DNA of 52,976 nucleotides, filler included, from Streblomastix strix (Eukaryota), in NCBI GenBank assembly GCA_008636045.1. It is 2 parts of 2 records of this genome, joined end to end, with 100 filler letters (N's around TTAATTAATTAA, not from the genome) between each part and the next. Parts side by side here need not be neighbours in the genome. Positions count along the whole stretch, not along the records: positions 1 to 26,475 come from SNRW01000165.1; 1 more part is not named here. One strand, written 5' to 3'. This document shows, one piece after another, positions 1 through 37,817 of this stretch. Made by a program: the position numbers and the translations under genes. Under the pieces are notes generated by a model. It had not been told where the DNA came from. It saw only the letters and a program-made list of their open reading frames with translations, and made no database searches. The first letter of the stretch is position 1, and each line of letters starts with the position of its first letter.

Positions 1-2
1 TT

Positions 3-6665: not shown

Positions 6666-6986
6666 TGATTATAAAAATAAATTGAAGTTTAGTTTGAATT
6701 CTAGATTACTATTAAATTTTGATCATTGAAATAGTTTTATTCAATTTTATATTAATATCTTCATTTTATAAATTTCATTCAATGTTTCATATTAATTTAA
6801 TTTTCAATAAAATGATACAAATATTGATTAATTATGATTTGATTAAATAAATGTTGAATAAATAACTAATAATGATATTACTAACATCTAACTCATTCAG
6901 AAATATTATAAATATTGATTTAAATAATTAATTTAAATGAAAATTAAAAATTTAAAAAATATATGCTGAGTCATCGAATGTTTTGC

Positions 6987-7944
6987 ATAGGGTCACTGTA
7001 AATTATAGAACTTCTGGAATTTCAGGTCCTGCCTGATCTGAACATCCAAGCATCCATTTTAGTTCAACATTTGTTAGCTGGGAACTTGTCACGCAATCCC
7101 TGTAAAATAAAAACTGCAATTAATAATATAAAATAATAAGATATATTATAATTCATACATGTATATCTATTGTGTGCAAAAGTATAATCGGTTGAGTGAG
7201 CAATCGATTGAACATTACCTAGAAATTTTCAAGCCATTTTATGAAGTCCATGCATAACAAATGATAAACTGCATTCTATAAATTATGAATTCGTTGGTTA
7301 ATAAATAATAAAATTTATAAATTATGACAAATTGTATGCTATATACCATGGGATGCAGTTCTCGCCAACCAGCTTGCCACTTTGTTCCTATCTGTATAAA
7401 TATTCATATTTCTACGATTCAATGCAAAATTCATTAAATATCAAAACATGTAGCAATCCCAAGGTGCGTACCAGCTCGAGCAGTTAACCAAATAATAGCC
7501 AAGTTTTTCCATCCATCCCTCTATCTGAGAGAATATATTACTCTATTTTCTAGCATAATTTAACATGTACTATGAAATTTTAAAATTAATTTAACAAATT
7601 GATTCTCGATTCATAAATTTGATTTTATCGTTAGAAACTAAACTTTAATTATAAATTATGGTACTATATTTTTGTAGAATTCTCTTATTTTATATATAAT
7701 CAATACATAAAATAGAATGAGATACTTGTTTAGCCGAGAACAAGCTCAAAATAAACCAAAAACTTGAAAATTACCAGATCGATCCTGAGTGCCTCATGCT
7801 TTAAATCATGAAATGGTCGAAAATCCCCTCTTGTATTTTGATCTAATTTTTAAAAATATATTTTCACTATTTGATTCTTTCTGGTTATGGAAATCGGGTG
7901 GAACCTGAATTGCCGAAAAATACCATAATCTACAGTGACCCTAT
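6987..7944. mobile_element. Non-autonomous TIR DNA element (~0.96 kb) carrying a spliced minus-strand ORF of unknown function
   Basis: atagggtcactgtaaattat (6987) and ataatctacagtgaccctat (ends 7944) are 19/20 inverted matches, with looser similarity to ~55 bp. The minus strand has short exon-like blocks (e.g. SQIEGWMENLAIIWLTARA, RNKVASWLARTASH) bounded by GT/AG. Confidence 0.6.
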
Positions 7945-8520
7945 TTGAGATGATTTTCTTCGTTAGTAAAGCTGTTTTGATGAATTTTTCATGAGTATTA
8001 GCAAATCAATGATGAAATTAACAAAAATATTTTAAATCATCATGTTCAATCTTTACTATTATCATACATGCATTCTTCTAAAAAATCTTTATATCTTTCA
8101 TTTAAATAATTATTCCAATAAGCTTAATAATCAAATTTATGTTCATAAGGAGTAATAATTTTATCAATTAAATCAATTTAAATTGTGTATTATTATATTG
8201 TCGGCAATTGTTTTATAATTGAATACTGATTATTAAGTTCATCCTATTTTTTAAATTGAAATTTATCTAAATCTAGGTAGAAATCATACTTAAGATGATT
8301 TGGAAATACTTTTATAATAGTTATTGTATTTTATAACGACGATGTTGATGCTATTTCTTTTCTTGATTGTCTTTCGTAGAAAATTAAAAAGAATAATTTA
8401 TAAAATAAGGTTGATATAATAAAAAAAATAAATTAAATAAATTTAAAAATTAGCTAATATTTTTTTAAATTTTTAAATTTTTCTTTTTAATAAAATCTTT
8501 ATCTTGATCATTTTAATTTT

Positions 8521-10209
8521 AAAACAAACACCTCCAAATTAACTTAAATATTGATAACACGTAATTATACGAAAAAATAAGTAAAAGCGCTTTGAGAATT
8601 ATTTGGACGTTACTTTTCAAAAATTCCATTGGAGTCAGGATAAAACAAAATTTATCTCTAATTTTAAGATTATAATATTAGTGAACCTCATGATTACACC
8701 CATGAATTGATATAAAGAGTTTTTGATGCAGTGTCACTAAAACGTCTTTAAGAGAGAAAAACTTATTAAAAAATACTAGAAGATGAATTATTAGGTGTTG
8801 AATTTCCGGTTGATAATATTGAATAATTTAACGAAAGAATGTAAAGAATGTATGGAACTAAAGGAAATGAGAAAGAAGAAGAGAAAGAAATATAGTAAGT
8901 AATAGAAAAAGAAATAGAGTAAGATAAGCTTTTTAAATTAATATAATTAAATAAATAATAAAAATAAAAAAAATATTAACAAGAACTAGAAAAAGAACAT
9001 AAAGGTGCTGTTTTATCATAAGAATTATTAGATTATTTATCTGATATTAAAACAAGAAAGAATGTGAAAGATTTATCAGCTGAATATGATAATCTTAAAG
9101 TTATTATTAAAGAACCAACTACAAAATTAAAAGTAAAATTAAAAGGTCATCCATAGAATAAATAAATATAAATTTAATTTAGATTCCCGATTCACAGTTC
9201 AAATCTTTTACCATAATTTGTCCAAGAATAATTAAGAAGACTTGGTAAATATGTTGAAGAACCAACTTTGTTAGCAGACACTAGCTAACGCTTTTGGCAA
9301 CTCATCGATAGAGCAGCTCTAGAATTATTATCATTATAGTTATAAGCTCTTGGCTATGACGATACTAAACCAGCTATTGAAGCAAGAGTTAAAGGCTTTT
9401 TAGATTATTCACTTCCAGATTAATAATATGAGCCTTATTATTATTTTCTTTAACCTCTATCATCCGAGACAATATCAGATATCCATGATAGAGTAGAAAA
9501 TTCTCTAAATAATGTAGAAATTAAAGCATAAAAAGAATAACTTAATGAAAAATATAAGAAGATTCATTAAGAATTTAATGATATTCCTGAAGAATAATTA
9601 CAAACTTTCAAGATGGCTGATGAAGAAATAATAGCTGATATATATCATTTCAATGATAAGGAACTCAAATAAATTTAAATTGAAGGATTAATTGAAGAAC
9701 AAAATCAATCTCTTTTGTTAACTGAGCCTGCTGATTTGAAAATGTTTATATAAAGTTTTCGAGCTGCAAGAAGAGAACATCCAGGCAAATTAAGAGAAAT
9801 TAAAGGAAAATTTGGTAAAGATTAACATGAACCTACACATATATATATAAATAATTAAATTATTTCATTAGATGATAATTGTTAATGAAAAAGACCAATG
9901 CCCTCACATTGATAAACACAGTGATTTGTCCACAACAGAAATACCCAGCAATATTAAGAATTGCTGACATATGAAAAATGAATAGATTATCGAGACCCGA
10001 AAATCAAAGAATAAATTGATGTTGAAAAAGAAATACGGATAAAATAATAAATTATAACATTTATGAATATCATTAGTAATGAAAAATAATTGGTATGATT
10101 TATGATATGCGTTAATAAAAAGTAATTGATCTCGTTTCTGAGACCCACAAATGAACAGGATTTAGGCAATGTTTCGAGCATTGGTTTTTTTCATTAACTA
10201 CTCGATTGA
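8521..10209 (+). pseudogene. Long intronless hypothetical protein, probably viral, with scattered in-frame TGA
   Basis: One code-6 frame is open from 8596 to 9885 (~430 codons, e.g. QRFWQLIDRAALELLSLQLQALGYDD). It continues in frame to 10209 through several TGAs. No start codon was identified. Confidence 0.55.
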
Positions 10210-10699
10210 ATTAGCTTATTTATCTAATTTTATCATGATTGGTAATCTGTCCGATTAAGTTTTCATTGATGAAGTTGAAATAATGGCATCGAGTAGTTGG
10301 TCGATGACTGAAATACATTATTTAATGAAATTGATGGTGATCAACTGATTCAGAATCGCGAATAAGCAACATTTTTGGATTCTTCGTATGCGATATGACC
10401 TTAGTGAAGAGTATGAATTAGATATGAAATATTAAGTTTTTAATAGGGATTTCGACCTAATATAAATTTATTTTATTTTTATTATATAGACTGAAAATCA
10501 TGAAAAAATTGAAGTTTTTTGAATGACCTAAGAATCAATGTACTAATCAATATTGGCACATTGATCACAAATATAATGTTAAAAATGAATGGATGGACTA
10601 TTGATTCGGTCAAATTAAGCGGAATAATGTGATTGATTAATTGTGTGGATAAATGAAGCGAAATGTCAACTTGCACAGGTACTACTTTAAGATAATTCT

Positions 10700-11143
10700 T
10701 AAATTAGTGTTATGACATGGAGATTTACATTAGTTTATCCATCTGCACGGGGTGCACGACCTGCATGGGGTAAGTTGGTAAACTATTTTGAGATCTGCCA
10801 TTAACCATTAATGCCATAAATTAGAGTCATGGAGAAATGAAGTGAATTGTCCATGTGCATCGAGTGCATTGAGTGCATTGGGTCATAAGCAGACAGGCTG
10901 GATTCCCACCATATTTGACATATTGCCATTAATTAGAATTATGAATAAATGAGATGAATTGTCCATGTAAATGAAATATGGCAGTCCAATTAAGTGATTG
11001 ATAAAATTTCTGTACCATTCATATATGGATGAGTTAGCGGAGTAGATAAATGATATGAATTATCTATATGGGACAAAAGGACAGGACGGGATAAAAATTT
11101 TTAGTCCTGACAAATTTGTCTGCCATACGTCATATGCCATAAA
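10700..11143. repeat. Non-coding array of degenerate GC-richer repeats upstream of the primase-helicase
   Basis: Motifs ctgccat...atgccataaa, aattgtccatgt, gtgcat/gtgcac and gggaca/ggacggga recur. 10977-11143 is a diverged direct copy of 14031-14199. Confidence 0.6.
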
Positions 11144-11195
11144 CTAAATAAAATTATTTTTCTCAAACTATTTGAACTTTTTATCCGAAAGCAAA

Positions 11196-14003
11196 ATGGC
11201 AACAGAAGAATTTTCAAAAGACAAATCAAACCAATAAACAAACGTGAAATGCGAGACACTTGAGAAATGACCAAAATGTAAATATATTCGCAAATTGAAA
11301 GCAGATGATAAAGCAAAAGAGAAGATTGACCAAATGATTAATGAATAGGCGAATGAACAGACAAATGAACCCATTAATAGGCAGATTATTGAAGAGAAAT
11401 ATGATCAACACATTCATGATCCAATTAATTCAGAAGGTGATCTTGAAGCAAAACTTTCAAATTAATAATTAGCGTATAGATTAGAAAAAAATAGAGATGA
11501 CAATATATTTCTTGAAATGATACAACTGATAGCAGAATTATATATGTAATAATAAGATTCAAAAACAATAATTGAACGCGTTAAAGATGCTATGATTAAC
11601 ATAGTAAACTATACAAAAATAGGCTAATAGGAAGGAAAAAAATAATAAATAGCTGGTAAACTAATTGATTTCTCATTAATGTGTGACGAAAATCTATATG
11701 TTGTTGATATAAACATTGATAAGGATAAGTCAATAGAAGAGATTGATAAAATAAGATAAAATCTAATTGATACCCTTCCAACAAACGTAGGTTTAGTTAA
11801 GACTGCTCTTGGAGGATTACATATCTATTGCAATAGGAATTATTATAGATTACCTTCCATTCGTAATGTAAAAGTTGCTGTGACAGACAGTTTTGATATT
11901 AACATATTTGCATAAATGAATAAATATAAAATTGAAAATGGAAAAGAGACTAAAGAAATAGTATAGAATCGAGTAGTTGCTCCTAACACAGCTATTCGAG
12001 AAACTAAAAATAATTAACTAATTTCGCACAAAAATGAAGCAATTAATGATTGGGAAAATGCTTCATGCTTAGCGAGTTTGCGAGAGAAACTTGACAAATG
12101 GAATATAGATATTGAGATGTCATATAAAGATTACGCTTAAAACAAACATGATTGAATCTATGGAGTATAAATCAATGATGAAGGTACAATTGAATAAATG
12201 AATGATGAACTTGCATAAACGTATGTTGATGGGTTGAAGAACCTAGAAATACATAATTATCCTTAACTAATCAATATGGAAGTTTCTCTTCTAAGTATAT
12301 TCTGTGGATTATATGGTATCACTAATGAATCAATTAGAGCTGAAGGAATAGGAAATATACGCAAATTTAATAAGCTATCTGCAAACGCTGATAAGAACTA
12401 TGAATAAGCTGCATCTGATGGCGAACATAAACCAAATCCATGGATCTTAACAAAAATCCTTGGGTATCATAACAAAGACTATTATGAATAGATAATTAAA
12501 CCATTATTGAAAAAGAATTATGAAGCAAAAAAGAAGGAAAAATAAATCATAATTAATTAGATATTGATTTCTAATAAGATTGATCTATAAGATGGATTCA
12601 CATTACTTGATATGCAAGAGAAAGCAACTAATGCAGAATACGAAAATGAAGAATAAATTGTTATGGACTTAACAAGATTATTAGTATACTATGAAGGTGA
12701 AACTGAAGATATCTATGCGATTAATGGATATGATTCTATCTGTGACACACAAGTTTTATACCATAAGCTAGAGGGAACAATTTATAAATAAATAGAGAAA
12801 ATTAAAATAAATTTTAAGAATAAGAAAACTGATGAAAAGACTGATGATAAAAAGGATTCTAAACAATTAACTGCAAAACATATCTTTAAGAAATATGCTT
12901 CAAAATTTGCTAAGAAAGGATGTAAATTCATTAGTGAAGATCCAAAGATTCTTACAGTATTCCAAGGGTATAAATAAAAGAAATTTGATACAATTGATTA
13001 TGAATGCTTGCAAATGTACCTTGATTTAATTAAAGAAACTATTGCTGCGGATGATGAATGAGTCTATGAATATATTCTTAATTGGATAGCATGGATGATA
13101 CAAAATCCTGGAAAAAGTCTAGATGTGCAATAGTATTATAAGGCAGATAAAATATAGGTAAAAATAGATTCACTGATGTGATTGCTGAACTAACAAGTCG
13201 ATACAGCTGTCCAAATATAACTAACATAGATGAGTTCACAGGCAGATTCAATTCAGTAGTTGAAAAAAAAATGTTTGCAGTACTGAATGAAATTATGAAT
13301 TATAATGACTCAAAGAAAGGTGTTGCAACAGTAATGAAATCAATTATTTCCGATTTAACTATAAGAATTAATGAAAAGAATTAACCAAGAAGAACTGCTG
13401 AGAATGTAATGAATATAATCTATGTGACAAATGCTGATATGCCTGTATAATTGGACACTGATGATAGACGTCATTTAGTATGTGCTTGTAAAACTGTTCA
13501 TTAAGTGAGTGAAGAACATAAAGAAGATGCTGATTATTTTAATGAATTAAGCTCAAGTTACACATAAGAGTTTTATGAAAATCTTATAACATTCTTTCTT
13601 GAGAGAGATATTTCATAGTTCAATCCAACATTAATTCCAATGACTGAAGCTAAGAAATAATTGATAAATGTTAGTCGATCATCAGCAGATGATGTAATTA
13701 TGGAACATTATGAGTGGTTCAAATAAGGAATTCCAATAGCTCTTGTAAATTAATTCAAACCTTCAAATTGGTTACTAATGACATATAAGAATGCAATGAT
13801 TCACAAATTTGAAGAATAAAGAATTTATATTAATGGAATAAGAACTAGAATATATATTAAATAAGAATTAATAATCATATTACGATAAGATGATGAATGA
13901 AGAAGATACTGAAACGTCAAATGCAAACTATTAGAAATATAAGAAAACAATTGAAGATGATGGACTCGTTGAATAGGTAGTATAAGAGATAAAAGATGAA
14001 TGA
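11196..14003 (+). pseudogene. Prim-Pol (AEP) primase fused to an SF3/D5-like helicase; disabled
   Basis: AEP motifs LYVVDINID (DxD changed to DxN), VKTALGGLHIY (~11800-11828), FDINIF and RVVAPNT. Helicase motifs YILNWIAWMIQNPGKK, Walker A GRQNIGKN (13142-13165), FTGRFNS, AVLNE, IIYVTN and DDRRH. In-frame TGA at 11268, 12153 and 13059; frameshifts near 13115 and 13860. Confidence 0.88.
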
Positions 14004-14030
14004 AAATGATTTTTTTTCTGTTCAAACATT

Positions 14031-14621
14031 TATGGCAGGCTTATCGATTAATGGGACAAAATAATCTGTCCTCATTAGTATGTACATGCTAGCGGAGTGG
14101 GCAAATTGAATAATTATCCATGTGGGACAGTTTTTGGGACGGGACAAATCAGTGGACTCCTGTGAAAAAAGCCTGCCATTACGCCATTCATGCCATAAAT
14201 GAAATCAGTAATAAAGTGTATTGGTGATGGAAATTATTTTTGAAAATGAATGATTCTATGATAAATGAAAATCTTTCAATATATTTACGAAAATGAAGGT
14301 AGGACAAATTTAAAAGTCAATCTTTGAAATAGCTGCCATAATTATCTCTTTATGGTAATGTATAGATGTGCAATTTAGATAGAATGTTCAATAGCTATGG
14401 AGAATTAGATTCAAAATGAATGACATGGCAAAATGGCACGATGGCAGATGAAATGCACAACCTTCAGAGATCTGTCCCGTCCCATCTCGTGTCCCACATA
14501 ATCAAATAATCAATTTACATATATAATAAAAGATAATTCTATACGATTCTAGCATATTAACATATTTCATCAAAAATAATGGGACAAATCCAAAAGTCAA
14601 TCTTTGAATAGCCCGCCATAA
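14031..14621. repeat. Non-coding repeat array downstream of the primase-helicase
   Basis: tatggcag...tagcggagt...attatccatgtgggaca...ggacggga...ctgccat...tgccataaa matches the upstream copy. Two copies of ggacaaat-nn-aaaagtcaatctttgaa-tag-nn-gccataa lie at ~14302 and ~14582. Confidence 0.65.
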
Positions 14622-14887
14622 AATTTTATAATTATTATTATTACTCATTAGCACAAAAATAATTCATATTCATTGATTATTTGGTTAGTTATATCGATCA
14701 ATTATCTCACTAATTTAAAGTAAATCCTGTACGTTTGTTATGATAGTTTTCTAAAGACGTTGAATCAAGAGGAAGTATAAATCGTTGACAGATGCACGGA
14801 ATTCTTATCGCTGAATTCTATATTTTTATTATGCATGGGATCGTTACTCTGTGGCAATGCGTTCGGCTTCGCATGCTAACAAATAAA

Positions 14888-15601
14888 TCACACTCTAATC
14901 ATATTCAATAATTTGACTATTAATTTACAGATATTATCATCTAAACCTGATGTGAAATATTACTGCTTTGTTCGTTAGTTGTCATGGATAATCTCATAAA
15001 ATTTATTCAAACCTATCTCTTATATCTCAACTCTGTAGATAGCTGCATCTCCACTCTTGATCTATCGTTTCTTCATTATTTCTCCAAAACTGATGTGCTT
15101 GAATATTTCATTCATTAATTATTCTATTGACTTATTATATCTTAATGCAGTTGAAAGAGGAACATATGATTCAGTCAATTGGTTTATATTTTCTAGAAAC
15201 GATAGTCTTCCCAATCGTCCATTTCCATCCTCATGTGGATGGATGCGTTCGTATAATAGATAACACGCAAATAGAACCATAATCTTATTTGTTTGATCAT
15301 ACTCATAAGCGAAGTCCACTAATTGTTACAGCTCATTTGAATCGATGTTTTCATGTTAAATTCCAACATTAGTAGCAGAGATTATTTTTGAATTATTCTT
15401 ATCACTAACATATACACTACAATGTCTAAACGTCTCTCTTTTGAATAATGCTTAGTATAGTCCTTCAACCTATGGCACTTCATTATTCTTAAGGTATTCA
15501 ATTGCATCATTAATGTTATTTTTTGGTAATATATCCTATTAAATACAGTTAGAATCCATAATATTCTTATACATCAATCGATCTGCATCATTCGAAGCCA
15601 T
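14888..15601 (-). CDS. Fic/Doc-domain protein (putative AMP transferase), intact, 237 aa
   Basis: Uninterrupted code-6 ORF from ATG 15601 to TGA 14888 containing YERIHPHEDGNGRLGRL, which matches the Fic motif HxFx(D/E)GNGRxxR with F replaced by H. Confidence 0.9.
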
Positions 15602-15698
15602 TATCTTATCTATTTTATTATATCCATCATTATTGAACGTTATTGTAAATTCGTTAATTTTTATAGTTTATCTTGGAATCTTTTTAATAATAAATAAA

Positions 15699-15842
15699 AT
15701 GCTATTCGATATAGTTATTGGAACTTCATTAATGTTCATCGCTATTGCAAACATAGGCTTGTTTCTTATTGCTACAAGTGCTTATAATGCTCTAACCAAA
15801 GAAGAGGAAAAGACCCCAATAAATTTATCATTTTATTCGTGA
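15699..15842 (+). CDS. Small single-transmembrane protein (47 aa)
   Basis: MLFDIVIGTSLMFIAIANIGLFLIATSAYNALTKEEEKTPINLSFYS: one hydrophobic segment and a charged tail, ATG after AAAA, TGA stop. Confidence 0.45.
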   Translation: MLFDIVIGTSLMFIAIANIGLFLIATSAYNALTKEEEKTPINLSFYS

Positions 15843-15873
15843 CTATTAGACCTGTTATTTTTGATAAGAATAA

Positions 15874-16467
15874 ATGTCATTGATAAGATTAGTATCACCA
15901 TCCAAAAAAATAAGTTAAAGAGAACCAATGTCATCTCGTTAATCCGTATCGACAATTCCAGCAATAGTCGAAGTAGATTCACCATTCGAAAAGGAATAAG
16001 ATAAAGTGTCAGTTTAATCTGTTCGTTAAAGAAGAAAATGATCAATATTTGAAGAAATAATAATACCTGATCCATCAGTATGTCGATGGTTACTTGATAT
16101 AATTAGTGAAGATGAACATATGATTAAGGAATCAGCCCATTTCATATTATTCGAACATTAATTAATAAAAGTAATTGCATACACATTTGATGTAATGGAA
16201 AGCTAAGTTTTATTTAATACAGAAGATGAAGGATGTTGTGGTAAATTTATGCACGATGGTACTAGAACATTAAGAGATATTTAAATAAACAACGTAAATA
16301 TACTTATTCTAGATATCGATAAAGTCAAATTTCTCAGAGATTCATATAAATTATGCTTATAAAAAGTTAGAAAAATAACTCGAATTTTAGATCTAGGAGA
16401 TATCTCTTCAAAATTAATGTCTGCAGCAAGTAAAGGGTTAATGGCAGTTCTATCACAAATTCATTGA
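15874..16467 (+). pseudogene. Conserved hypothetical viral protein with a GCCG motif and one internal TGA
   Basis: Code-6 ORF with TGA at 16039. NTEDEGCCGKFMHDGTRTLRDIQINNVNI resembles EEPLMRAHSCMGKTNKKKGLIRVMDVLIKNVSV at ~29220-29330, and both precede a fibre gene. Confidence 0.55.
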
Positions 16468-16494
16468 CCATTCCAGTTTATTTTTGGTAATTAA

Positions 16495-19096
16495 ATGCCA
16501 ACTGATGCAGACTTACTTTCCTTAGATGTGCTCTAAATTCATGATGAAATTTTGTACAGAAACGTTCGTCATAATACTGTTTGGTTGATTGATTAAGTTA
16601 CAAACATTAATACTCAAATCAATATGATAAATAATGCTTCAGCACATGATGTATATATTAGACCTGAAACAAATAAAATATTTGATACAAAAGCTGATAA
16701 AACTGATACTTATACGAAAACTGAAACCGATACTCTACTCTATGATAAAGCATATAAAACTGTTATAATCGATGCATATAACACGACAGAAACCGATGAA
16801 AAATTAAACCTTAAAGCAAATGTTGCAGATATTGTTGATTGTTATTCTAAGACAGAAACCGATACTCTACTCGATGATAAAGCTGATAAAATTAATACTT
16901 ATACAAAAACTGAAACAGATACTTTACTCGATGGTAAAGCAGATAAAACTGATTTGGCTAATTATGTTGATTTAACTTCTGCTCGAACAATATCAGGTTA
17001 AAAATAATTCGGAATAATTAGTGTTTCCAGCATATCAAAACAAAGTAAAAATGATGCTTCTATTCCTCTCGTAGGAGGTGGCGATATGTTTATAAGTTCA
17101 CTAGTAACTTAGCCATAATTATAGGAAGTTAGAGATATTGCTACTGGAAAATCAAAAGCATATGTATTCTCATCATAAGAAGAGTTGAATAATTGGATGG
17201 CTATTCAAGAGAACGTTGCAAAACTAGTGATTGGAGATAATTTATATATTGTTGATAAAGAGGTAACAGAATATTGATGGGATGGAACTGACTTAAAAAT
17301 ACTAGAAACAAAATTATCTGATATGAGTAATGTTATTATAACTCTAGGTGCAGCTACTGGAAGTAGAAATGCAATAACTGATATATCAATTGATGGAAAC
17401 ACATTAACTCCTGTGAAAAATATTACGTTTGTTACTACAGGATTTGATCAATTTATTACTGGAATGAAGACCTTTACAAGTACTATTATTTCTAATGGTA
17501 TTCAATATTCAGGATACGATAATAGTTCTGTATTTTTTTGCTGGTGGAGGAGTAAGATCAATTGCAGATATAAATGCAAGTGATGATTTGAGTAATTATT
17601 ATAATAAAACTTAGACATATTCCTAAACAGAAACTAATAATCTATTAAACAATAAAGCAAACACTGGAGTTTTATATTCTAAATCGGAGGATGATACACT
17701 ATTGTTATTGAAAGCAGATAAGACATAATTGATTGATTCATTCACAAAAATTGAAACAAATAACTTATTGAATAGTAAGACTGACAATGGAGTTTCAAAC
17801 ACAAAAAGTGAAGATGAAGCATTCCTATTGCTGAAAGCAGATAAGACCAAATTGATTGACTCTTATATTAAATCAGAAGATGATGTATTCCTATTATTGA
17901 AAGCAGAAAATACCTAATTGATTGATTCTTATACAAAAACTGAAACAAATAATCTGTAAAATAGTAAAGCAAATACAGAAGTTTCTTATACGAAAGAAGA
18001 AGATGATGCACTCCTATTGCTGAAAGCTGATAAGACATAATTGATTGATTCCTATGCAATGACGGAAACAAATAATCTATTAAATGATAAAGCAAATTAA
18101 TCAACAACATGTATCAAAATAGAAACTGATCAATTAATATCTTAAATTGATACAGGTAATGTTGATTTAAGTAGTTACTACACTAAAACAAAAACAGATG
18201 AATTATTGGATGAGAAAGCAAATACAACTGATCTTTCTAATTATATGACCTTAGATACTGCATAAACAATTAATGCAAATAAGATATTCAATAATGCTTG
18301 TAGATTCGTTAGTTCAATTGATGGAATGTCGACAGTAACAGGGTCATCATTTGTCAAATCAGGTGCGGATGATACTGTAGTTTTACTTGGAGCTAGTGGA
18401 ACAAAACCAATATCTGAATTCGCTGGTGCTCCAACTGATTTATCAAATTATTGTGCAAAAACATAGACATATTCACAAACTGATACAAATAATAAATTTG
18501 TAAGATTGAAAGGTTCAATTCAATAAACAATAACAAGAAGATTAAAATATGTAAGTCCATTTGACTGTCAGGATGAAACACAGGACCCTGTAGCTAATAC
18601 TTACTTAACTATGTCAGAAATTGACGCTAAACTAACGAATGCTGTTACTGCAAATATCACTCAATCAATAACTGGAGCTAAGACATTCAATTCAAAAGTT
18701 AATGCTGCTGGATTTGCTAAAATAGGCAAGGATGATACATTGGTTCTATTGACTGGTGGTGGTGACCGATTATTATCATCATTTGGAGGGATTGAAGACT
18801 TAACATCGTCTGCATTTTCTAGTATGAATGGAGCAGTAGTATAAAATATATTAATTCGAATCGCAAATCTATATATATTTTCATTACTCGCTTATGGAGG
18901 AAATTATAACGTAGGAATTTTTAACCCTTATTACTTAGTTTAAGATGATACGGCTATTGCTACATATATTCCATTTCCGAATAGTACTATTGATAAGAGA
19001 GGTTATGTAATGATTACTCATTCAACTGATCTTATAACCTTAAAATCAAACACCAATACATATATTTAATGTGCATCTGCTACATAGGTTAAATGA
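16495..19096 (+). pseudogene. Virion fibre / tail-fibre-like repeat protein
   Basis: Many ~19-aa KADKTDTYTKTETDTLLDD-type repeats (~16660-16960 and ~17580-18240) and several T-Q-T/S-I-x-G-x-K-T-F...LLxGGG units like phage fibre shaft repeats. TGA at 17276 and a frameshift near 17540. Confidence 0.75.
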
Positions 19097-19133
19097 AGTT
19101 ATAGATCGATTCATACTATTTTTGAACTATGAA

Positions 19134-20774
19134 ATGAGTTACGAAATAAGCAGTGTATACATAGATGAAGCATTATTAGAAGCAGCAGGACTATTAGAAT
19201 TTCCAGAATATTATGCGTATATTATCGAGAGAGATCAAGAGCCAGTTCCACCAGCTGAGAGAGTACCAATCGGAGAATAAACTCTGCAATAACAAATGAA
19301 ACATAATTATGATATTCTCTTTAATACAAACAAAGAGTTTGTTCCTCCAGTTTCAAATGCACCTACAAAATTGGAGTTAAGTTCAAAGTTAGAACGATTT
19401 AATTTCTTAGCTTCAAGTGTATCAGATCCATAATTAATTGTGTACGGTGATCGTGTTACATTAACTGTGTCATATGAAACTACTGGATTGTTTCCTAATG
19501 GAAATTTATTCAAAAGTTATCCTGAAGAAGCTAGACCAAAAGCTGGCGATAAAGTGATTTAATTAGTTGGAACAGATACTACGAATAAAAATAGTATATA
19601 TTGCTATATCGATTAGAATAGACTATTTATCATCAGTACTTCATAGATTCCATCAAAAACTGCACTCTTAATAAATGTAACCAATTATAAAAAATATGAA
19701 TCATCGAAAAAAATAAATTATGATGCAAATAATGATGGACGAGTTGATATAATGGATACTTGGCATGTTAATGGCAAAAGAACTTTCGAAACATCATCTC
19801 ATGTATATGAAACTGTGAAAAGATAAACTGATTTGATCGCAACTGTATTGTTTGGTGATAATAAAATAAATTTTTTAAATAGTGATATAAAATTATAGGA
19901 TGAATTAGCAATCTATAAAGCGGATAGAGCAATATTTCTCATTAAGGAACGTTCATTTATTACATTTAGTTTTGGTGCAAAATTAGGATAAATTATATAA
20001 TAATAAGCTAATTCAGAAAATCAATAAACAGTTCATAGATTATTTTCGATAAAAACTTAAAAATTACTTCCTCCAAATACGAAGTATATGCCAGTTCGTA
20101 CTGAACATTAAGAATATACTGCGATGTGTTTGTTCAAAGATATGTTTGATAAATCATTAGCCGTAGAAGTAGCTGTAAGTGGTGTATTGAATAAGTATGA
20201 TTGTGAATTTTAAGGAACATATATACTCGATAACTATAAGAACCCAACATCAAATGAAAAACCAAACGCATTACCATTAGATCCAAAAGAACCTGATTCA
20301 CACATTGATGTAGTAATTATAAAATAAGATGGAAAATTAGTACCATCACCTTTACCAATGTATACAATAACTAATGTATTCAATTAAATTCAACTTATTG
20401 CACCATTTGATCAGGGTGGACGTGCTTATAATACGTATTATATTGTAGATGATGGGACTTGCAAAGTATGTGTATTCAATCTATATTTTGAAACAAAAGG
20501 ATAAGCAACATGTACATAAGAGATCGGTAGGATTCCAGATTCTATATTACCAACTGATGGTAAAAGTATGTGATTTCCTGCATCTGCCTATAGAAAAGCT
20601 GGTGGATATATAAATTGGTTAGGTACGTGCTATTTCGGATTCAATTAATAATATAAAATGTTATATTGCTTTTTGCAAAATGTTCAAGAAGTTATTCCTG
20701 AATCATCAACAGATATTTATGAATATTGCTCATGTGGAATGTACTATCTATGAGACGTTGATTCTATAAATTGA
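19134..20774 (+). pseudogene. Putative receptor-binding (fibre head) protein with three beta-rich domains and a Ca-binding-like loop
   Basis: Code-6 ORF of ~545 codons with YPEEARPK, QKLLPPN and IGRIPDSILPT motifs resembling fibre head domains, plus YDANNDGRVDIMD at ~19719-19757. In-frame TGA at ~20571 and 20751. Confidence 0.5.
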
Positions 20775-20806
20775 TGCAAGTACGTTTATTTTTGCGTATT
20801 AAAATC

Positions 20807-21136
20807 ATGGCAGCAGGAATATTCAACAAGCTAAAAAAATTAGTCTATATAGTAGGTAAAGGAGTCAGTTGGATGAATGATGAAGTAGTCAAACAAATAA
20901 TGCCCATAACTAACGCATTTCTCTAATCATTGGTACCAGCAGGAAGTATGGTGGCGAAAGGAATTAGTGCAGGATCATCTGCAGTTGATGCACTATGGGG
21001 TCCAAATAAATAATAATCAAAATAACAGTTTAGATAAGATTTTAAGACTTTCCGATAGGATGATTACTTAAGGAAAAATGTTCCGATTGATATAATTAGT
21101 AAACGTATACAGCTTCTTGGAGATAAATTTTAGTGA
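20807..21136 (+). CDS. Small protein (109 aa) with an N-terminal amphipathic helix; candidate membrane-lytic or core virion protein
   Basis: Intact ORF MAAGIFNKLKKLVYIVGKGVSWMNDEVVKQIMP..., located immediately upstream of the probable MCP. Confidence 0.6.
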
Positions 21137-21189
21137 ATCATTATTCGAGTTAACTAACATATAATCAGATTATTTTTGCGCAATTGAAC

Positions 21190-23383
21190 ATGAATCGCTA
21201 GCTTATGAAGACGCATATCTCAAAATCACAAGAAAATTTGTAAACTATTGAGAACTTATTAAAGACATTCGCAATTCAACCATTTTAGAATGACGGAGAG
21301 CACCATTTCTCAATCAAAGAGATCAAACCAGAATCATAAATGCCATCATTTTTTGACAAGGAAGTTATCATCAGTTTATCCGATTCGAATCATGATGTAA
21401 CACAAATGTAAAATTCAATCATTACACTTGAGTTTAAAATGAATCTGTTATTCGATAATAAATTTGATAAATTTGATGATGCTTATAAATAAGGTACTTA
21501 TATATCTGTAGGATTGAAGAATTCAGCTGAATTGAATAAATAATATGTTCTATATCATAGAGGAAAGACCATTGATTGATCCCTCTAGAACGATGTAACA
21601 ACTGAATCATTTATTTATAATACAATCAAACCAAAATTAGAGAAAAATAGTAATAGATTTGTCCATTCACTTTATGAAAATGTGCGTAAAGATGACATAT
21701 CTTGCTGTGGTAGATATTTTAGCATTAAAGAAATTTCAGAAGTACTTGCACCATAAACTTCATCTCCATATACCATGCCCGTTGGCTTCACAGTATCAAT
21801 CCCTCTGGATGATTTACTCATTTTCTCTGCATTCTCTGATCATCTTAGTAGTCTGTTTGGTGATCTCAAAATTAAATTCAAAATTAACCTAAGTGCATTC
21901 ATATTCTGCTAAAAAGATCCAGTACTTTCAATAGCTAAATATTATACAATTACAGTCAATATCGGTTAATTCAAATATCTGTTAATTCACAGTAGATTTA
22001 ATTCGCAGAATTCAATTTAAATGATCTATTTTTAAAATTTTTGCTTAAATTTTTTCACTTAATTTGCAGTAACTAAGTATGTAATTCGCAGCAATTTTTT
22101 ATCAAACTCTTATAAATTTTAATTTTTTAAAAAATAAAATAAAAGTTTATGAAATGTTTATATTTAATTTGGATATAGAATATTTTGTTTCTTTTCATAA
22201 AACTGAAATAAATAAAAATATTTCAAAAAATGTTTAACTAATTTTTTTATAAAACTTATATTTAAAATAAATTTAATTATTATTTTTATCAGTATTCTAT
22301 TAATGAATTTTTTTTAATTAAAATAAATTTTTTAATATTTTTTATGTACAAAAACTGCGAATTATCCCTAATTCGCAATTCCATTTTTTTGCAAAACGAT
22401 TTTTGAATTAACCGATAATACTGTAATAAAGATGAATGATTGAGTTCAGGTCAAGATAAGCTTAAGGATATTGATCTATTCTTCCGCAATTGGTCTCTCA
22501 CATTCTAATACACTATCATGTACACATAAATTGGATGCACTGCTGATTTGATAACTGGAATACGTGTAGAAGAACTAACTCCTTCAGGATTAAGGAATCT
22601 CGTTTGTGATATTAAACCAGTAACAGTATCTGTAAGAAACTATATTATAAAAGCTATAACAGCAAATATGTGTGGATATAAACATCAGAATATTGTCTTA
22701 ATCGTGTATGATAATTTTATTAAAGTCGTCCATTTGTTGTTCCTGCATAACGTATTGAATCATGGGTATTTCCAAGTGCAGCTTCATCTGCTGGAATAAA
22801 AACAACTTAAAATATACCACTATCTCATGTAACAGATATGTGCTTATTATTCCTTAAGGATGCTAGACATGTTACTTGTTACGAAAATACATGCTATTTT
22901 GATATGCAAATTAATACAATGAATAGAAATTTCCCAGATTTTCCAATGAATACTCCTAACGAATAATTCTTCACAATACAATTATAAGCTAATAATCTCG
23001 ATAATATATTCGAAGCACGTGATGAATACGAAGATTCACTCGCTACTTCAAGGGCTAATAAAACACGAAGATACAATCCAGTTAGTGATTATACATCATT
23101 CTTCATTACAATATAATGTGAACGCAATAACAATGGTGCATTAACATTTGATGCATTAGATTCTAAGAACTAGAACACTGCAATTGTACTAAAATGACGT
23201 CCAATATTCGCTAGAGAAGTAGATACTTATTATAATGTTGATACTAATGGAAAACATCCACCTCCTCCGATTTTGTGCACTGTGCATGATACTTTCTGGC
23301 TATTCAATCTTAGAGTTGGAGGATTTTGCCTATACGATACAACTCATTCATTTGATTAGGTTATTAATTAGGTTACTGCTTTA
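21190..23383 (+). pseudogene. Probable double jelly-roll major capsid protein, interrupted by a MITE
   Basis: About 575 codons after removing the insertion, beta-rich (FTVSIPLDDLLIF, LFGDLKIKFKIN, PFVVPAQRIESW, CERNNNGALTFD, PPPPILCTVHDTFWLF). Size and context (fibre genes, ATPase) fit an MCP. Several TGAs and a frameshift near 22683. The fold is inferred. Confidence 0.65.
21953..22423. mobile_element. Tc1/mariner-type MITE, 471 bp, TA target-site duplication
   Basis: ta|cagtcaatatcggttaattcaaa ... tttgaattaaccgataatactg|ta. Removing the element and one TA restores aca att aat aaa gat in the MCP frame. Subterminal taattcgca repeats are present. Confidence 0.9.
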
Positions 23384-23412
23384 TATCAATAGAACATTAT
23401 TTTTATAATAAA

Positions 23413-23787
23413 ATGCCATTTGATATGACCTCAGCTCCTAATGTAAAACGCTTTTTAATAATGTAGGATGATTATACGTATGTGGATGGAATGTTTATGG
23501 TATAGTTGCCTTATGATTTTGTTAACTCAAATAATTAGCGAAAAATAGTATTCGTATAATTTAAGATTCTTAATATTTCTGATATTGTTTCAATTCATTC
23601 AACACTAATATAAGAAGAATAATATTATGATAGTTTTATAAGTTTTTGTAATGAAACTAGAACAATTACTGAATTTTAATAAATAAATCATTACCCAAGT
23701 ATATTGATTTTGTTCAAAAATAATATGAATTAGAATGTATCATAAACGGATATAAAATTTGTTCTTGAATTGATGCTTTAATATTGA
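23413..23787 (+). CDS. Small beta-rich protein (124 aa), candidate minor capsid (single jelly-roll) protein
   Basis: Intact ORF directly after the MCP, ending in KFVLELMLQY, a terminal strand pattern like that of penton proteins. Function inferred. Confidence 0.5.
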
Positions 23788-23795
23788 TTGTGAAC

Positions 23796-23951
23796 TAGGC
23801 CGTTCAATTTGAACGGACCTATTTGATATAGGTAATTGAGTTTATTTTTGAAGGATTATTAGGTGAGTCCTAAATTCATGGTGACCCAATTTACTATGGG
23901 GATTAGTGGTCAAAATTTCAGTTCAATCGGTCAGCTGAAATTCGGCTGACC
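23796..23951. promoter_or_regulatory. Cluster of short palindromes between the capsid module and the KilA-N gene
   Basis: taggccgttcaatttgaacggaccta (23796-23821) and ggtcagctgaaattcggctgacc (23929-23951). Confidence 0.5.
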
Positions 23952-24032
23952 CCCCTCATAAATTATTTTTCATGCATTAATAAATAGTCTTTATTTTAAT
24001 TTACTAATCTATCTTTTTTTACAAATCAGAAA

Positions 24033-24884
24033 ATGGAACAAGTCAAAACTGCTACTGAAATCTAAAACAATGAAAAATTCAAAATTGTATCGAATAATGG
24101 GCTGAATTTCATGATATGGTAATCAGATGAGTTTGTCAATGCTACTAAACTTTGTGATCAACATCATAAACCATTTAAGCTTCTAATGAAAAACTAATTC
24201 TGGCACGATTATTTCGATGAAGAACAATAAGAACTTGAGTGTGGCGGAAATCTGCCATGCCACCTATTGTATGAGATTAATAAAGGGTTTGATAATAAAT
24301 TCAAAGGTTATTAAGTTCATCCACATTTAATCAATTATGTAGCAATTTGGGTATCACCGAAGTATGCTATGACTGTATGAAAGATTTTGGACAAAATTAA
24401 CGAAACAACTATTGCGAAACATGAAGCTGATAAAACATAAGCAATAACAGATTAACTCCATAGTGTAATAAATACAGTTACTGATACATTATCTGATAGA
24501 ATCACTGAGTTAAACAATAAAGTACATTAATTAGCACCAAGAGTTGTTCCAAATGGTAAAGAAATAACATACATATTGATAGTTGAAGAGATTAATGAAG
24601 ATGAATAACTTGAAGAATAGCAAGAAGATCATATTACAACACGAATCAGAAAAATTAATAGAAAAGACTTACGTTCCGCAAAAATAGAACGATATCGTCG
24701 TGAATCATTACTTTTTGTTGATAATTTACCAATAGCTATGACAATTAATGAGAAAATTAAAGAAACTCTATAATTAAGACAAGATGTAAAAATATGGTCA
24801 ACACATTATACATTCCCAGAAGATTAATTAGATTTCATAATTGATATAACATAAGCCGTAATTAACACAGAAAGAGCACATTGA
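24033..24884 (+). pseudogene. KilA-N domain DNA-binding protein with one in-frame TGA
   Basis: DEFVNATKLC...FWHDYF...KGYQVHPHLINYVAIWVSPKYA, followed by a coiled coil and a C-terminal domain. TGA at 24378. Confidence 0.88.
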
Positions 24885-24917
24885 TGTATATGGCTATTTT
24901 ATTTTTATTTAATTGAA

Positions 24918-25322
24918 ATGTCTCGTATACTATTCGATAGTAAATTAGTTATGAACCATAAGTCCTAAGACAAAATATAAAAATTACTTGAACTAAAAAT
25001 AATCAACAATACTGATGTGTAACTATTAACGTTTGATTCGACTGATGAATTCCATTAATATTATGCAGCTAATAAAGAATCTATTGATAAGATGCCAATT
25101 ATAAAATTAAATAAGCAATATAAAATAGAAAGGTATATCTTTACAAAATAAAATGAATAAATAGCATTGAAATAAGCGAAACATAAGTCATCTGAACAAA
25201 TTGAATTTGCTAGTCTATAAGAATAAATCAAAGAAATAGATACTAAACTAACATATTTAATTAACTTCTTTGAATAAAAATAATAATCAATATCCTACTA
25301 AGATGATGAATACGTTCATTGA
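24918..25322 (+). CDS. Hypothetical viral protein (134 aa)
   Basis: Intact code-6 ORF from ATG to TGA (TFDSTDEFHQYYAANKESIDKMPIIKLNKQYKIE) with a C-terminal coiled coil. Confidence 0.6.
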
Positions 25323-26123
25323 TCGTATTATTCGTACCATTGTTCCATCATTATTATACTGTACCATTAATGCTTCTCGTTTGCCTAATTGCTCATATTC
25401 ATTCCATAACGTTTCCTTATCTAACGGAATGCTTGATTAATAGAAGAATAAATTGAATTTTTATCTATTGAATCCATCGAAAAAGTATATTGTATCATCA
25501 TTAGATTTAATATTAGCGTCTAAACAAATTATGTCTTACAAGCATAGGAAATAAGTGATTCTAGGCTATCTATTTTTGAATAGTTTCTTATATAATGGAT
25601 TGTTTTTATTCTTGAAGATACTCATTGCATCATCGAAAAGCACTATTGTATATGGAAATTTGATAGAGAAGTCCTTTGTTCCTACATGAGATAATATATC
25701 TTTTTTAGATTCATCATTCATTTATTTTTCTAATTTCTTTTCAATAAGTTCATCATAAGCTTGTTTACATTCAATTAATTCATCTAATGCTTCATTTACT
25801 TCTGTATATGGAACTATATTAGTTAGGATAGTGATTAAGTCTTTCATTTTCTTATAAGTTATATTGTTATTGCTATCAGTAACATATATGAATAGTGTGT
25901 AACAATTATTAGGCAATTAACTCAATTTAATTAGCTCTTTGAATACATTATATGACTTACCGCTTCCTCGCTAACCAACAAGAAGATTGATTGAATTATA
26001 TGAGAAATTTAGTTCTTTATGAATAATTGATTATACTACATGTTTATTAGTTTTCTATTTACTAAGCAATTGATCTACATATGCGTTAAGAGATATGTGT
26101 TTGTTATTAATTATTTCATTCAG
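25287..26123 (-). CDS. A32-like (FtsK/HerA) genome-packaging ATPase; start codon apparently degenerate (CTG)
   Basis: Walker A LLVGQRGSGKS (25953-25976), Walker B TIVLFDDA, and KNRQPRITYFLCLQD carrying the conserved Arg and Gln. The frame is uninterrupted in code 6. Confidence 0.9.
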
Positions 26124-26147
26124 TTATGAACGTTTTCTTATTAACAA

Positions 26148-26475
26148 ATGAGCACAGAAGAGTTAAATTCTGAAATTGGAAATATCTAGACAATTACACG
26201 AGGTAGTAGTGAATTCGTTAATGAGTTACGTAATGCGTAGGATCGTGTACAAAATTTACATATACACAAAGGTCGTAAAAGTAAAGCTGAAGAATTAGAA
26301 ATATTGAATCAAACAGTTATTGCATTTCGAAGAATATAAGAAAAATATTAGAATTCAACATAATAGATTACTAATAATCCATTGTAAACTTATATTGCAA
26401 GTTAACCTTAAACAATTACTTAAAATCCATTAGTATAATTATAATCAACATAATAACGAACAAAATAACCAACAT
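26148..26475 (+). CDS. Hypothetical viral protein, truncated by the gap
   Basis: ATG at 26148; open in code 6 (MSTEELNSEIGNIQTITRG...) up to the N run. Confidence 0.5.
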
Positions 26476-26575
26476 NNNNNNNNNNNNNNNNNNNNNNNNN
26501 NNNNNNNNNNNNNNNNNNNTTAATTAATTAANNNNNNNNNNNNNNNNNNNNNNNNNNNNNNNNNNNNNNNNNNNN
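26476..26575. other. Artificial 100-nt contig linker or gap
   Basis: N run + TTAATTAATTAA (26520-26531, standard-code stops in all six frames) + N run. Confidence 0.95.
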
Positions 26576-29467: not shown

Positions 29468-30516
29468 ATGGACTCATAAATTTTAAGCGATTTATAAAAT
29501 CTTGATGAGGATGATTTAGCTAATGAACAATAATAGTTCCAAATATTGAAATTAAAATAAGACGAGAAAATGAAATAAATAAAGTAAAAAAAATCAATTA
29601 ATGACAATCATTGATAATCAAACTCTAAAGTGGTTCGCTTACTTGTCCCAATTTTTTAAAAAATGCTATTGGGTTCGTTAATCTAAAAACCAATCAACCA
29701 ATTGACGGAATCTAAACCTTTCTATCACCTATTTACGTGGATAAAATTATAAAATAAGGTGGAACAAATAATTGAATTCTACTCGATAATGGAGATACAA
29801 CTGACGTAGGTGATTTTTACCTAAACAGTATCCGCATGCGATGGGGTAATTGATTATTGACCCCTTTGATAACTTATTAGATTAAGGGATTTGAATAATG
29901 AAAAATAAAGCAAATTTGGATAGTTTCGTATTCACAGGCTGCAACACTGACCCCTCAGATAGAGATGGTGTATGGAAAGTTGGATCAACTTCATCATAAT
30001 TTAGGATATAAAAATAATAAGATTAAGCATATGATTATAAGGGTTTGATTATTGATTTCGATTGTACAACACTTAAATTTAACAATTAAATTGTATCACC
30101 TCTCCCTGTTCCTCCTATTGAAAATGCAATATATTAATCTGTTGCCTATGGAATGTATGAATAATTAATTTGGGGTACTGTAAAATCATAAAAATACCGT
30201 GTATATATTTCTCTGTAAATAACTCACCATAATCCTGACACCATATATCGATAGGGATATACTTTATTCGCAATCTTTAATAATGATATAAAACCAAAAT
30301 TTACATGCACACCTCATAATATACCCCTTAATGCTGTTATGTTTGCGTAAAAAGTATTTGGTTATCCTATATGCTGGAATGGTGCAATTCCCATCGATTG
30401 TTTTATTCATCCTAATGGAAATATAATAATAAATACAATATGTTAGCTTAATTTACCTGAAGATTTTTTGTGTATTGGTTTGCGATTCATATGCTGTTTA
30501 TAATTAATCAACTTGA
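29468..30516 (+). pseudogene. Second fibre-like protein, decayed
   Basis: FVNLKTNQPIDGIQTF...IIKQGGTNN*ILLDNG matches the T-Q-I-G-K-T-F...LLxGG unit of 16495-19096 and is followed by a beta-rich head. Frameshifts and TGAs are present. Confidence 0.55.
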
Positions 30517-30868
30517 AATTTTTAAAAATATATAAATGGAAGGTTTTAATGAGACAGTTATTTATGCCCTTGATTAATTAAATATAAATTAGCATGCTAT
30601 ATTTAAAACTATTTGGGAAGCGGCAATAAAATACGCTTGCGAATCTAAAGTTTGCCATTGAAAATAATTAAGTTTTATTATTATATAAATGATTTGGGGG
30701 AAATTATCCAGCATATCATTAATGATTATCGCTTGTAATAATTTGCTTGGATGTATATTAATGATAGCATAAATAAAAATAGATAGTGAAGAAATTAGTG
30801 AAGATGTTCGAAATTCGATATATGGCTGAATCCATTAATGGTATCATCCGTGAAAAATAATTATTTTT

Positions 30869-31300: not shown

Positions 31301-31311
31301 CCTAGCGGAAG

Positions 31312-37790: not shown

Positions 37791-37817
37791 GCAGGGGATT
37801 AAAGCTTCAGATAAGAA

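What the first reader, a model, noticed from the sequence alone, without database searches (positions are those of the whole stretch)
8521..26475. Code-6 endogenous Polinton-like virus with a Prim-Pol/SF3 helicase and no visible pPolB
Seen: an ~18-kb block of tightly packed intronless genes with AEP primase and SF3 helicase motifs, a packaging ATPase, KilA-N, Fic and fibre repeats, all using TAA/TAG as Gln. Established: a packaging ATPase with jelly-roll capsids marks PRD1-adenovirus-lineage viruses, and many Polinton-like viruses and virophages use primase-helicases instead of pPolB. Inference: this is a virus adapted to the host's non-standard code, invisible to standard-code ORF calling and possibly an undescribed lineage of metamonad viruses. 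The missing part beyond the gap could still hold pPolB or an integrase.
Basis: partly seen in the sequence, partly recalled or inferred. Interest (0 to 1): 0.88.

Follow-up and report, generated by a model that had tools for sequence, protein, structure and literature searches.

The report
Broken recoded virus in termite-gut protist
This is a damaged, cut-off copy of an already published family of small DNA viruses that likely sit in the chromosomes of the termite-gut protist Streblomastix strix and read TAA/TAG as glutamine like their host; it adds that this lineage likely copies its DNA with a primase-helicase gene set between repeats.

Summary
The block is real, but the family is already published. 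All 71 capsid homologs and all 106 primase-helicase homologs found are Streblomastix strix proteins. The capsid gene matches KAA6381728.1, a seed of the 'Metamonada group' in Bellas et al. 2023 (PMC10120064), who already reported code-6 viral insertions there (820 capsid hits) with capsids about 32% identical to Trichomonas Mavericks. Code 6, the jelly-roll capsid and an AEP Prim-Pol fused to an NrS-1-like SF3 helicase are supported. This copy is dead: stops, frameshifts, changed catalytic aspartates and a Tc1/mariner-type MITE in the capsid gene. Two corrections: the repeated element starts near 9.9 kb, not 8521, and the 'gap' is a 100-nt six-frame-stop spacer, so DNA beyond it is probably another contig. 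No pPolB or integrase lies in the held part, but one end is missing. Not found in print: the replicase is bracketed by ~175-nt direct repeats, occurs in tandem elsewhere, and co-occurs mainly with one capsid subclade (weak statistics). AEP-SF3 replicases are common in Polinton-like viruses. The scan earlier noted code-6 viral genes in another genome.

The parts
8596..9888 (+). Intronless 430-codon frame of unknown function; low-copy, probably outside the repeated element (host gene or variable terminal gene)
   Evidence: No Pfam or significant PHROG hit; depth 144-248 against about 10,000 or more inside the element in run X1
9890..11195 (.). Left unassigned region; start of the multi-copy part; segments of it recur in either orientation beside other replicase copies
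   Evidence: Depth step; gene models P0174, P0150, P0458 map here; six-frame Pfam scan empty
10977..11149 (+). Repeat R1 (about 175 nt) upstream of the replicase
   Evidence: Aligns with 14031-14205, score 98; best of 300 shuffles 37
11196..14003 (+). Broken AEP Prim-Pol / NrS-1-like SF3 helicase gene (about 900-960 aa in intact relatives); TGA at 11268, 12153, 13059, frameshifts near 13110 and 13850; two catalytic Asp are Asn here
14031..14205 (+). Repeat R2, direct repeat of R1; resembles the DNA upstream of the replicase in two other copies (P0083, P0471)
14425..14516 (-). Partial inverted copy of the same repeat
   Evidence: Score 58, best of 300 shuffles 39;
14888..15850 (-). Fic-domain protein with intact HPHEDGNGRLGR motif (15241-15206); start codon uncertain
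   Evidence: Pfam Fic E 3.8e-5
16120..16467 (+). 115-aa ORF, unknown
   Evidence: No family
16495..19096 (+). Fibre-like repeat gene, broken (TGA at 17275, frameshift near 17540)
   Evidence: PHROG 5004 E 1.7e-9, tail fibre PHROG 10305 E 5e-4; P0060 spans the break
19134..20573 (+). 479-aa ORF conserved upstream of the capsid gene in other copies; likely structural
   Evidence: Fused gene models P0054, P0060, P0065 map across it
20807..21136 (+). 109-aa protein with amphipathic N-terminus, likely a membrane-active virion protein (adenovirus pVI-like; label recalled, untested)
   Evidence: Homolog near the capsid gene in standard-code locus L005, pairwise E 3e-7
21190..23380 (+). Major capsid protein gene (double jelly roll), broken by TGA at 21577 and 23195, a frameshift near 22680 and a MITE
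21953..22423 (.). 471-nt Tc1/mariner-type MITE: CAGT...ACTG inverted arms with TA on both sides
   Evidence: L007 aligns contiguously across it; arms
23413..23787 (+). Likely minor capsid protein (fold not tested)
   Evidence: Homolog directly downstream of the capsid gene in standard-code locus L006, pairwise E 2e-7
24033..24884 (+). KilA-N domain gene with internal TGA at 24378
   Evidence: Pfam E 7.5e-14 read through with X
24918..25322 (+). 134-aa ORF, unknown
   Evidence: Only weak PHROG hits
25287..26096 (-). Likely FtsK/HerA (A32-type) packaging ATPase; Walker A 25976-25953, Walker B 25649-25629, R...Q motif 25577-25536
   Evidence: Motifs in the sequence; profile searches not significant
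26148..26475 (+). ORF cut off at the end of the piece
26476..26575 (.). Artificial 100-nt spacer with standard-code stops in six frames; not part of the element

Best explanation
This is a dead, truncated copy of the published Metamonada-group Polinton-like virus family of Streblomastix strix, written in the host's code 6 and likely integrated in a chromosome, whose intact relatives would likely replicate with an AEP Prim-Pol/SF3-helicase fusion rather than a protein-primed polymerase. Shown: code 6, capsid family membership, replicase domains, many copies, breakage. Inferred mechanism: the helicase unwinds an internal origin, probably the ~175-nt repeats beside the gene; the Prim-Pol starts and extends DNA, alone or with host polymerases. 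The ATPase packs the genome into a double jelly-roll capsid with penton and fibres, and an amphipathic protein aids entry. Long residence let Gln codons drift to TAA/TAG, which ties the virus to code-6 hosts. The integrase (a tyrosine recombinase is the usual partner of AEP replicases) would lie in the missing end or come from a helper.
For: 71 of 71 capsid and 106 of 106 replicase homologs are S. strix proteins. P0375 (KAA6381728.1, Bellas's database capsid) matches the window at 88% (86 aa), 74% (234 aa) and 69% (304 columns, running into the MITE). The top 7 VIA hits of a poor model are double jelly-roll capsid or scaffold proteins, Z 4.5-5.6; Atlas neighbours at 0.96 carry Capsid_N, Capsid_NCLDV and Sputnik MCP families; Bellas Table S3 gives Foldseek E 2.6e-12 to Sputnik for a sister capsid. 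The replicase model matches pRN1 and NrS-1 Prim-Pol (Foldseek ranks 1-9; Z 7.8, rmsd 3.6, 147 aligned); the helicase matches NrS-1 at E 1.5e-26; catalytic D, D, H, D are kept in 34, 34, 36, 35 of 40 aligned relatives. Three other contigs carry both genes 5-6 locus tags apart, as this gene order predicts; P0095 and P0160 tie the replicase to DNA on the Fic side. No unassigned stretch over 1.3 kb remains for a pPolB, and six-frame Pfam scans of those stretches are empty.
Against: The right end is missing and no complete copy could be fetched, so pPolB and an integrase could lie there. Only 3 of 46 capsid-bearing contigs of 9 kb or more had a replicase in my incomplete lists. In run X1 depth over the replicase is several-fold below depth over the structural genes; the gap is smaller in X2 and X4, and depth is no copy number. 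T. vaginalis, with the related capsid, has 388 pPolB copies as well as many primase-helicase homologs, so the two can coexist in this group. My capsid model is poor (pLDDT 37.6) and Foldseek on it gave nothing at E 0.001. Minor capsid and ATPase rest on synteny and motifs.
Confidence: 0.68

Rival explanations
1. The Prim-Pol/helicase is a separately mobile replicase cassette, bracketed by repeats, that has inserted beside or into the capsid module; the virus's own replicase is elsewhere or was displaced.
For: Direct repeats flank the gene. Two long, only 32-56% identical replicase genes sit at adjacent locus tags on one 11,770-nt contig (P0121, P0133). Flanking segments occur in either orientation and order in other gene models. 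Depth steps near 9.9 and 14.5 kb delimit the unit in run X1. Preprint 10.64898/2026.10.13.758929 section 13 reports repeat-bracketed AEP replicases and proposes such mobility.
Against: Same spacing to the capsid gene in 3 other contigs, all with the window's capsid clade, fits a stable module. The flank mappings come from automatic gene models and may be splice artefacts. No target-site duplication or empty site was seen.
Confidence: 0.17
2. It is a Trichomonas-type Maverick whose pPolB and rve integrase lie in the unassembled end or on a separate partner element; the primase-helicase is accessory.
For: Capsid about 32% identical to T. vaginalis Maverick capsids, same cluster MMPC_40. T. vaginalis holds both pPolB and primase-helicase homologs. 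The held part is about 16.6 kb, leaving room in a 20-25 kb genome.
Against: pPolB plus primase-helicase in one genome is described as uncommon (PMC3671162); AEP replicases pair with tyrosine recombinases rather than DDE integrases. No pPolB, rve or protease trace in the held part.
Confidence: 0.13
3. The breaks, or the join of replicase and capsid modules, are short-read assembly artefacts of collapsed repeats.
For: Bellas et al. show that many stops in such elements are assembly errors. No laid contig spans the stretch.
Against: A MITE with inverted arms and TA on both sides is a biological insertion. The linkage recurs on 3 other contigs.
Confidence: 0.05

Closest known systems
Metamonada (MMN) group endogenous viruses of Streblomastix strix, capsid cluster MMPC_40 (Bellas et al. 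2023, PMC10120064)
   Same: Same capsid family (69-88% to KAA6381728.1), same host by homology, same code 6, many copies.
   Different: The text I read gives no gene map or replicase for these elements; its Dataset S1 lists five S. strix entries whose drawings I could not see. This copy is broken.
Trichomonas vaginalis Mavericks/Polintons
   Same: Related capsid (about 32%, E about 1e-72, Bellas Table S5); KilA-N and a packaging ATPase (recalled for T. vaginalis).
   Different: They are known for pPolB (388 copies) and an rve integrase (recalled) and use the standard code; neither gene is seen here.
Polinton-like viruses with AEP-SF3 replicases (preprints 10.64898/2026.06.19.733378 and 10.64898/2026.10.13.758929; entomopoxvirus-associated PLVs, PMC11296320)
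   Same: Capsid module plus AEP-SF3 fusion in place of pPolB; repeats bracketing a replicase.
   Different: Here the AEP resembles pRN1/NrS-1 Prim-Pol and the helicase NrS-1 (DUF5906); no tyrosine recombinase was found; the Metamonada elements remain ungrouped in the June 2026 framework.
Phage NrS-1 primase-polymerase-helicase and plasmid pRN1 ORF904
   Same: Prim-Pol fold, helical domain and SF3 helicase in one chain; helicase E 1.5e-26 to NrS-1.
   Different: Eukaryotic virus context; no sequence-level match of the Prim-Pol domain; activity untested.

Membership tests
Metamonada-group EVE of S. strix (MMPC_40) | Major capsid protein in that cluster | tested here: met
   tblastn of P0375 (KAA6381728.1) and P0422 (KAA6401509.1), both named in Bellas Table S5
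Metamonada-group EVE of S. strix (MMPC_40) | Viral genes use TAA/TAG as Gln | tested here: met
Metamonada-group EVE of S. strix (MMPC_40) | Many copies in the host genome | tested here: met
   71 capsid and 106 replicase clusters, all S. strix; depth step
Polinton-like viruses | Double jelly-roll major capsid protein | tested here: met
   On intact relative P0001: VIA top 7 rows, Z 4.5-5.6 on a poor model; Atlas 0.96; published Foldseek E 2.6e-12
Polinton-like viruses | Single jelly-roll minor capsid protein | tested here: inconclusive
   Syntenic homolog in L006; no fold obtained
Polinton-like viruses | A32-like packaging ATPase | tested here: inconclusive
   Motifs present; no significant Pfam, PHROG or PDB hit
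Polinton-like viruses | Replicase: pPolB or polymerase/primase-helicase fusion | tested here: met
   AEP Prim-Pol plus SF3 helicase
Polinton-like viruses | Integrase (tyrosine recombinase or rve) | tested here: inconclusive
   None in the held part; element is cut off
Polinton-like viruses | Terminal inverted repeats, 15-30 kb length | not testable with these tools
   Right end missing; no whole genome held
Maverick/Polinton in the strict sense | Protein-primed DNA polymerase B | tested here: inconclusive
   No room and no hit in 9890-26475; missing end unseen
Maverick/Polinton in the strict sense | rve integrase with 5-8 nt target-site duplication | tested here: inconclusive
   Not seen in the held part; ends unavailable
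Maverick/Polinton in the strict sense | Adenovirus-like cysteine protease | tested here: inconclusive
   No Pfam hit among 22 frames; three ORFs unassigned
AEP Prim-Pol family | Prim-Pol fold with DxD, H and D catalytic residues | tested here: met
   Met in relatives; in this copy the second and third Asp are Asn
Virophages | Virophage-cluster capsid, cysteine protease, dependence on a giant virus | tested here: inconclusive
   Fold-level likeness to Sputnik and mavirus capsids only; Bellas places virophage capsids in a separate cluster; dependence not testable

The most novel reading that the evidence does not exclude
One S. strix capsid clade has swapped the ancestral Trichomonas-type pPolB/integrase module for a self-mobile, repeat-bracketed Prim-Pol/NrS-1-helicase cassette that still moves and multiplies on its own, while sister clades in the same genome keep another replicase: a single genome recording replicase turnover in hundreds of copies of a recoded virus.
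Probability: 0.22. Interest if true: 0.62.

Novelty: new member of a known kind. Interest (0 to 1): 0.33.

Why it matters
The family and its host-matched code are published, so the headline claim is not new. What this copy adds is a gene map and a replicase for a capsid group that a June 2026 framework still leaves unclassified. If the repeat-bracketed Prim-Pol/helicase proves mobile or clade-specific, S. strix would offer hundreds of natural copies to test the proposal that such replicases move independently of capsid genes. It also flags that six-frame-stop spacers in these windows should not be read as gaps.

Tried and rejected
No whole genome is held. Capsid alignments found no relative in viral contigs, genome contigs or the first metagenome scan; the second gave 8 loci of 1.7-3.1 kb, too short to show a replicase. 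HMM search of the capsid alignment against PDB sequences: 0 hits; Foldseek on the poor capsid model: none at E 0.001; no Pfam capsid family among 53 members. Prim-Pol Pfam did not match any of 40 members. ATPase: no significant PDB or Pfam hit. I used a frame at 32808-33347, which I guessed might be a pPolB N-terminus of a second element, to look for S. strix pPolBs: 408 candidates, none significant; the guess is unsupported and the family-level pPolB question stays open. No RNA holder listed. Depth was seen only for 6500-21500. The Atlas did not answer for the minor-capsid relative. The capsid tree is the quick version, SH-aLRT only, and holds no named Trichomonas, Polinton or virophage sequence, so nesting within Mavericks was not tested by a tree. 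Rejected: that DNA past 26575 continues the element (spacer; tblastx of the two pieces gave no match at E 1e-4); that ORF 8596-9888 is a core gene (low depth, no match among 481 fetched proteins apart from its last few codons).
Full report
Observation. Under the standard code the window has 2 ATG-started ORFs of 100 aa or more; under code 6 a packed block appears. In 20 viral frames TAA/TAG number 190 and CAA/CAG 52. With Gln masked, TAR codons in five capsid pieces align to Gln in 57 of 164 columns of 11 standard-code relatives, CAR in 17 of 49, and other codons in 156 of 4558. So TAR means Gln. Pfam on 22 frames gave DUF5906 (E 6e-18), Fic and KilA-N; PHROGs added fibre families. GC is 28.8% in 9890-26475 against 20.0% in 1-6800.

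Boundaries. The 'gap' is 44 N, TTAATTAATTAA and 44 N, a self-complementary linker with standard-code stops in six frames, between pieces of 26,475 and 26,401 nt. I infer two joined contigs; a scaffold gap is not excluded. tblastx between the pieces found nothing at E 1e-4. Contigs of four public DNA runs (three samples at most; three of the runs labelled termite gut metagenome) laid on 6500-21500 give summed depth in X1 of 101-421 up to 9505, 2,290 in the next bin, 4,400-18,600 over 10.0-14.5 kb and 26,600-144,000 beyond. Depth is no copy number and X1 may be the source sample, but the first step also shows in X2-X4, so the repeated part starts near 9.9 kb. ORF 8596-9888 lies outside it and stays unassigned.

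Capsid. The first capsid piece, read through with X, found 71 proteins among 1,604 candidates, all named Streblomastix strix. tblastn shows the gene broken by TGA at 21577 and 23195, a frameshift near 22680 and an insertion. Locus L007 aligns contiguously across the insertion, which has CAGT...ACTG arms and TA on both sides, the pattern of a Tc1/mariner MITE (recalled). An AlphaFold model of the intact relative P0001 was poor (pLDDT 37.6) and Foldseek found nothing. VIA-align ranked seven double jelly-roll capsid or scaffold proteins first, at weak Z 4.5-5.6. The ESM Atlas put P0001 beside Preaxostyla, Parabasalia and Preplasmiviricota clusters and, at 0.96, clusters with Capsid_N (24-56% of members), Capsid_NCLDV and Sputnik MCP families. 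A profile search found 543 relatives at E 0.001; the closest outside S. strix are unnamed metagenome proteins about 38-40% identical. In a quick tree of 76 rows the 26 S. strix rows form one clade (SH-aLRT 100) with a window-type subclade A of 12 rows and three others. Standard-code loci keep a homolog of 23413-23787 right after the capsid gene (L006) and one of 20807-21136 nearby (L005).

Replicase. The N-terminal two thirds found 106 proteins among 7,994 candidates, all S. strix. The profile matches NrS-1 helicase at E 1.5e-26. A model of P0075 (pLDDT 69) matches pRN1 and NrS-1 Prim-Pol at Foldseek ranks 1-9 (best E 9e-4) and VIA ranks 1-3 (Z 7.5-7.8; Z under 8 is modest). Catalytic D, D, H, D are kept in 34, 34, 36 and 35 of 40 rows, mostly gaps otherwise. 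This copy has three TGA stops, two frameshifts and Asn at two of those Asp: it is dead.

Is the replicase part of the virus? Using equal contig length and near locus tags as a proxy, I compared 48 capsid gene models on 46 contigs of 9 kb or more with 44 replicase contigs. Three contigs hold both, 5, 5 and 6 tags apart. By clade: 3 of 20 clade-A contigs against 0 of 26 with other clades only (Fisher p 0.075); at 14 kb or more, 3 of 8 against 0 of 14 (p 0.036, cut-off chosen after seeing the data). Against a clean split: one of the three contigs also has a clade-B capsid 3 tags from the replicase, the fused model P0157 joins a replicase to a capsid piece scoring best to clade B, and both lists are incomplete. 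The gene is bracketed by a diverged direct repeat (10977-11149 and 14031-14205, score 98, none of 300 shuffles above 37) with a partial inverted copy at 14425-14516. Of 157 replicase models, 8 also map to the flanks, some in other order or orientation, and P0121/P0133 are two divergent replicases at adjacent tags.

pPolB and integrase. Assigned genes cover 13,419 of 16,586 nt; the largest unassigned stretches are 1,306 and 884 nt, and six-frame Pfam scans over them found nothing. So no pPolB lies in the held part. The missing end could not be fetched, and a try for S. strix pPolBs with a guessed fragment failed.

Literature. PMC10120064 (passages, section 9, searched rows of supplement 2, passages of supplement 1, name list of supplement 3; drawings unseen) states that S. 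strix viral insertions use the host code, counts 820 capsid hits in one cluster, and lists KAA6381728.1 as about 32% identical to T. vaginalis contigs. That protein is P0375 and matches the window at 69-88%. Preprint 10.64898/2026.06.19.733378 (passages) calls replicase switches common and leaves Metamonada elements ungrouped. Preprint 10.64898/2026.10.13.758929 (passages, section 13; supplements not seen) reports AEP-SF3 fusions as common, paired with tyrosine recombinases and sometimes bracketed by repeats. T. vaginalis has 388 pPolB copies (10.1101/2023.08.22.554363, passages) and many primase-helicase homologs (PMC11296320, section 7). PMC3671162, PMC4405056 and PMC6431247 were seen as passages. 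Three searches naming Streblomastix with Polinton, capsid or Maverick terms returned only PMC10120064; I found no description of the S. strix replicase in the text I read, but that paper's drawings may show it.

Verdict. A new, dead member of a published virus family. The code adaptation is known and an AEP-SF3 replicase is ordinary among Polinton-like viruses. The residual interest is the repeat-bracketed replicase and its possible tie to one capsid clade, which needs whole-assembly or long-read data.

Noticed in passing
window 26476-26575: 100-nt spacer with a central TTAATTAATTAA; under code 6 it has no stop, so ORF finders run across it and join unrelated pieces.
   Followed up: yes
window 29895-33650: Degraded virus-like genes in the second piece: a fibre-like frame, a penton-like C-terminus ending at 32698, and a frame I guessed to be a pPolB N-terminus. 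No tblastx match to the first element, no Pfam hit, no homolog found.
   Followed up: partly
window 35007-39306: Degraded retroelement with reverse transcriptase (Pfam RVT_1 E 1.3e-15), RNase H-like and tyrosine-recombinase-like stretches (by eye) and 71-nt inverted repeats at 94%: likely DIRS-type.
   Followed up: partly
window 33871-34500: Tc1-like transposase remnant with a weak HTH match.
   Followed up: no
window 40028-40771: Fold-back element with long inverted arms (181 nt at 80%), probably a MITE.
   Followed up: no
window 57-356: Weak match to a divergent Prim-Pol/helicase relative (P0171, 33%, E 3.5e-7): a possible second replicase remnant at the start of the piece.
   Followed up: no
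window 2834-6130: Five tandem ~710-790-nt units of an intron-containing, helical-repeat-like host gene.
   Followed up: no
L005 398-1527: A standard-code relative carries an HNH-like gene (by eye) and the amphipathic small gene on the opposite strand upstream of the capsid gene.
   Followed up: no
P0178-P0325: Hundreds of unnamed standard-code capsid relatives in metagenomes, one 90% cluster on a 22-kb contig: the 'orphan' Metamonada capsid group is larger than published.
   Followed up: partly
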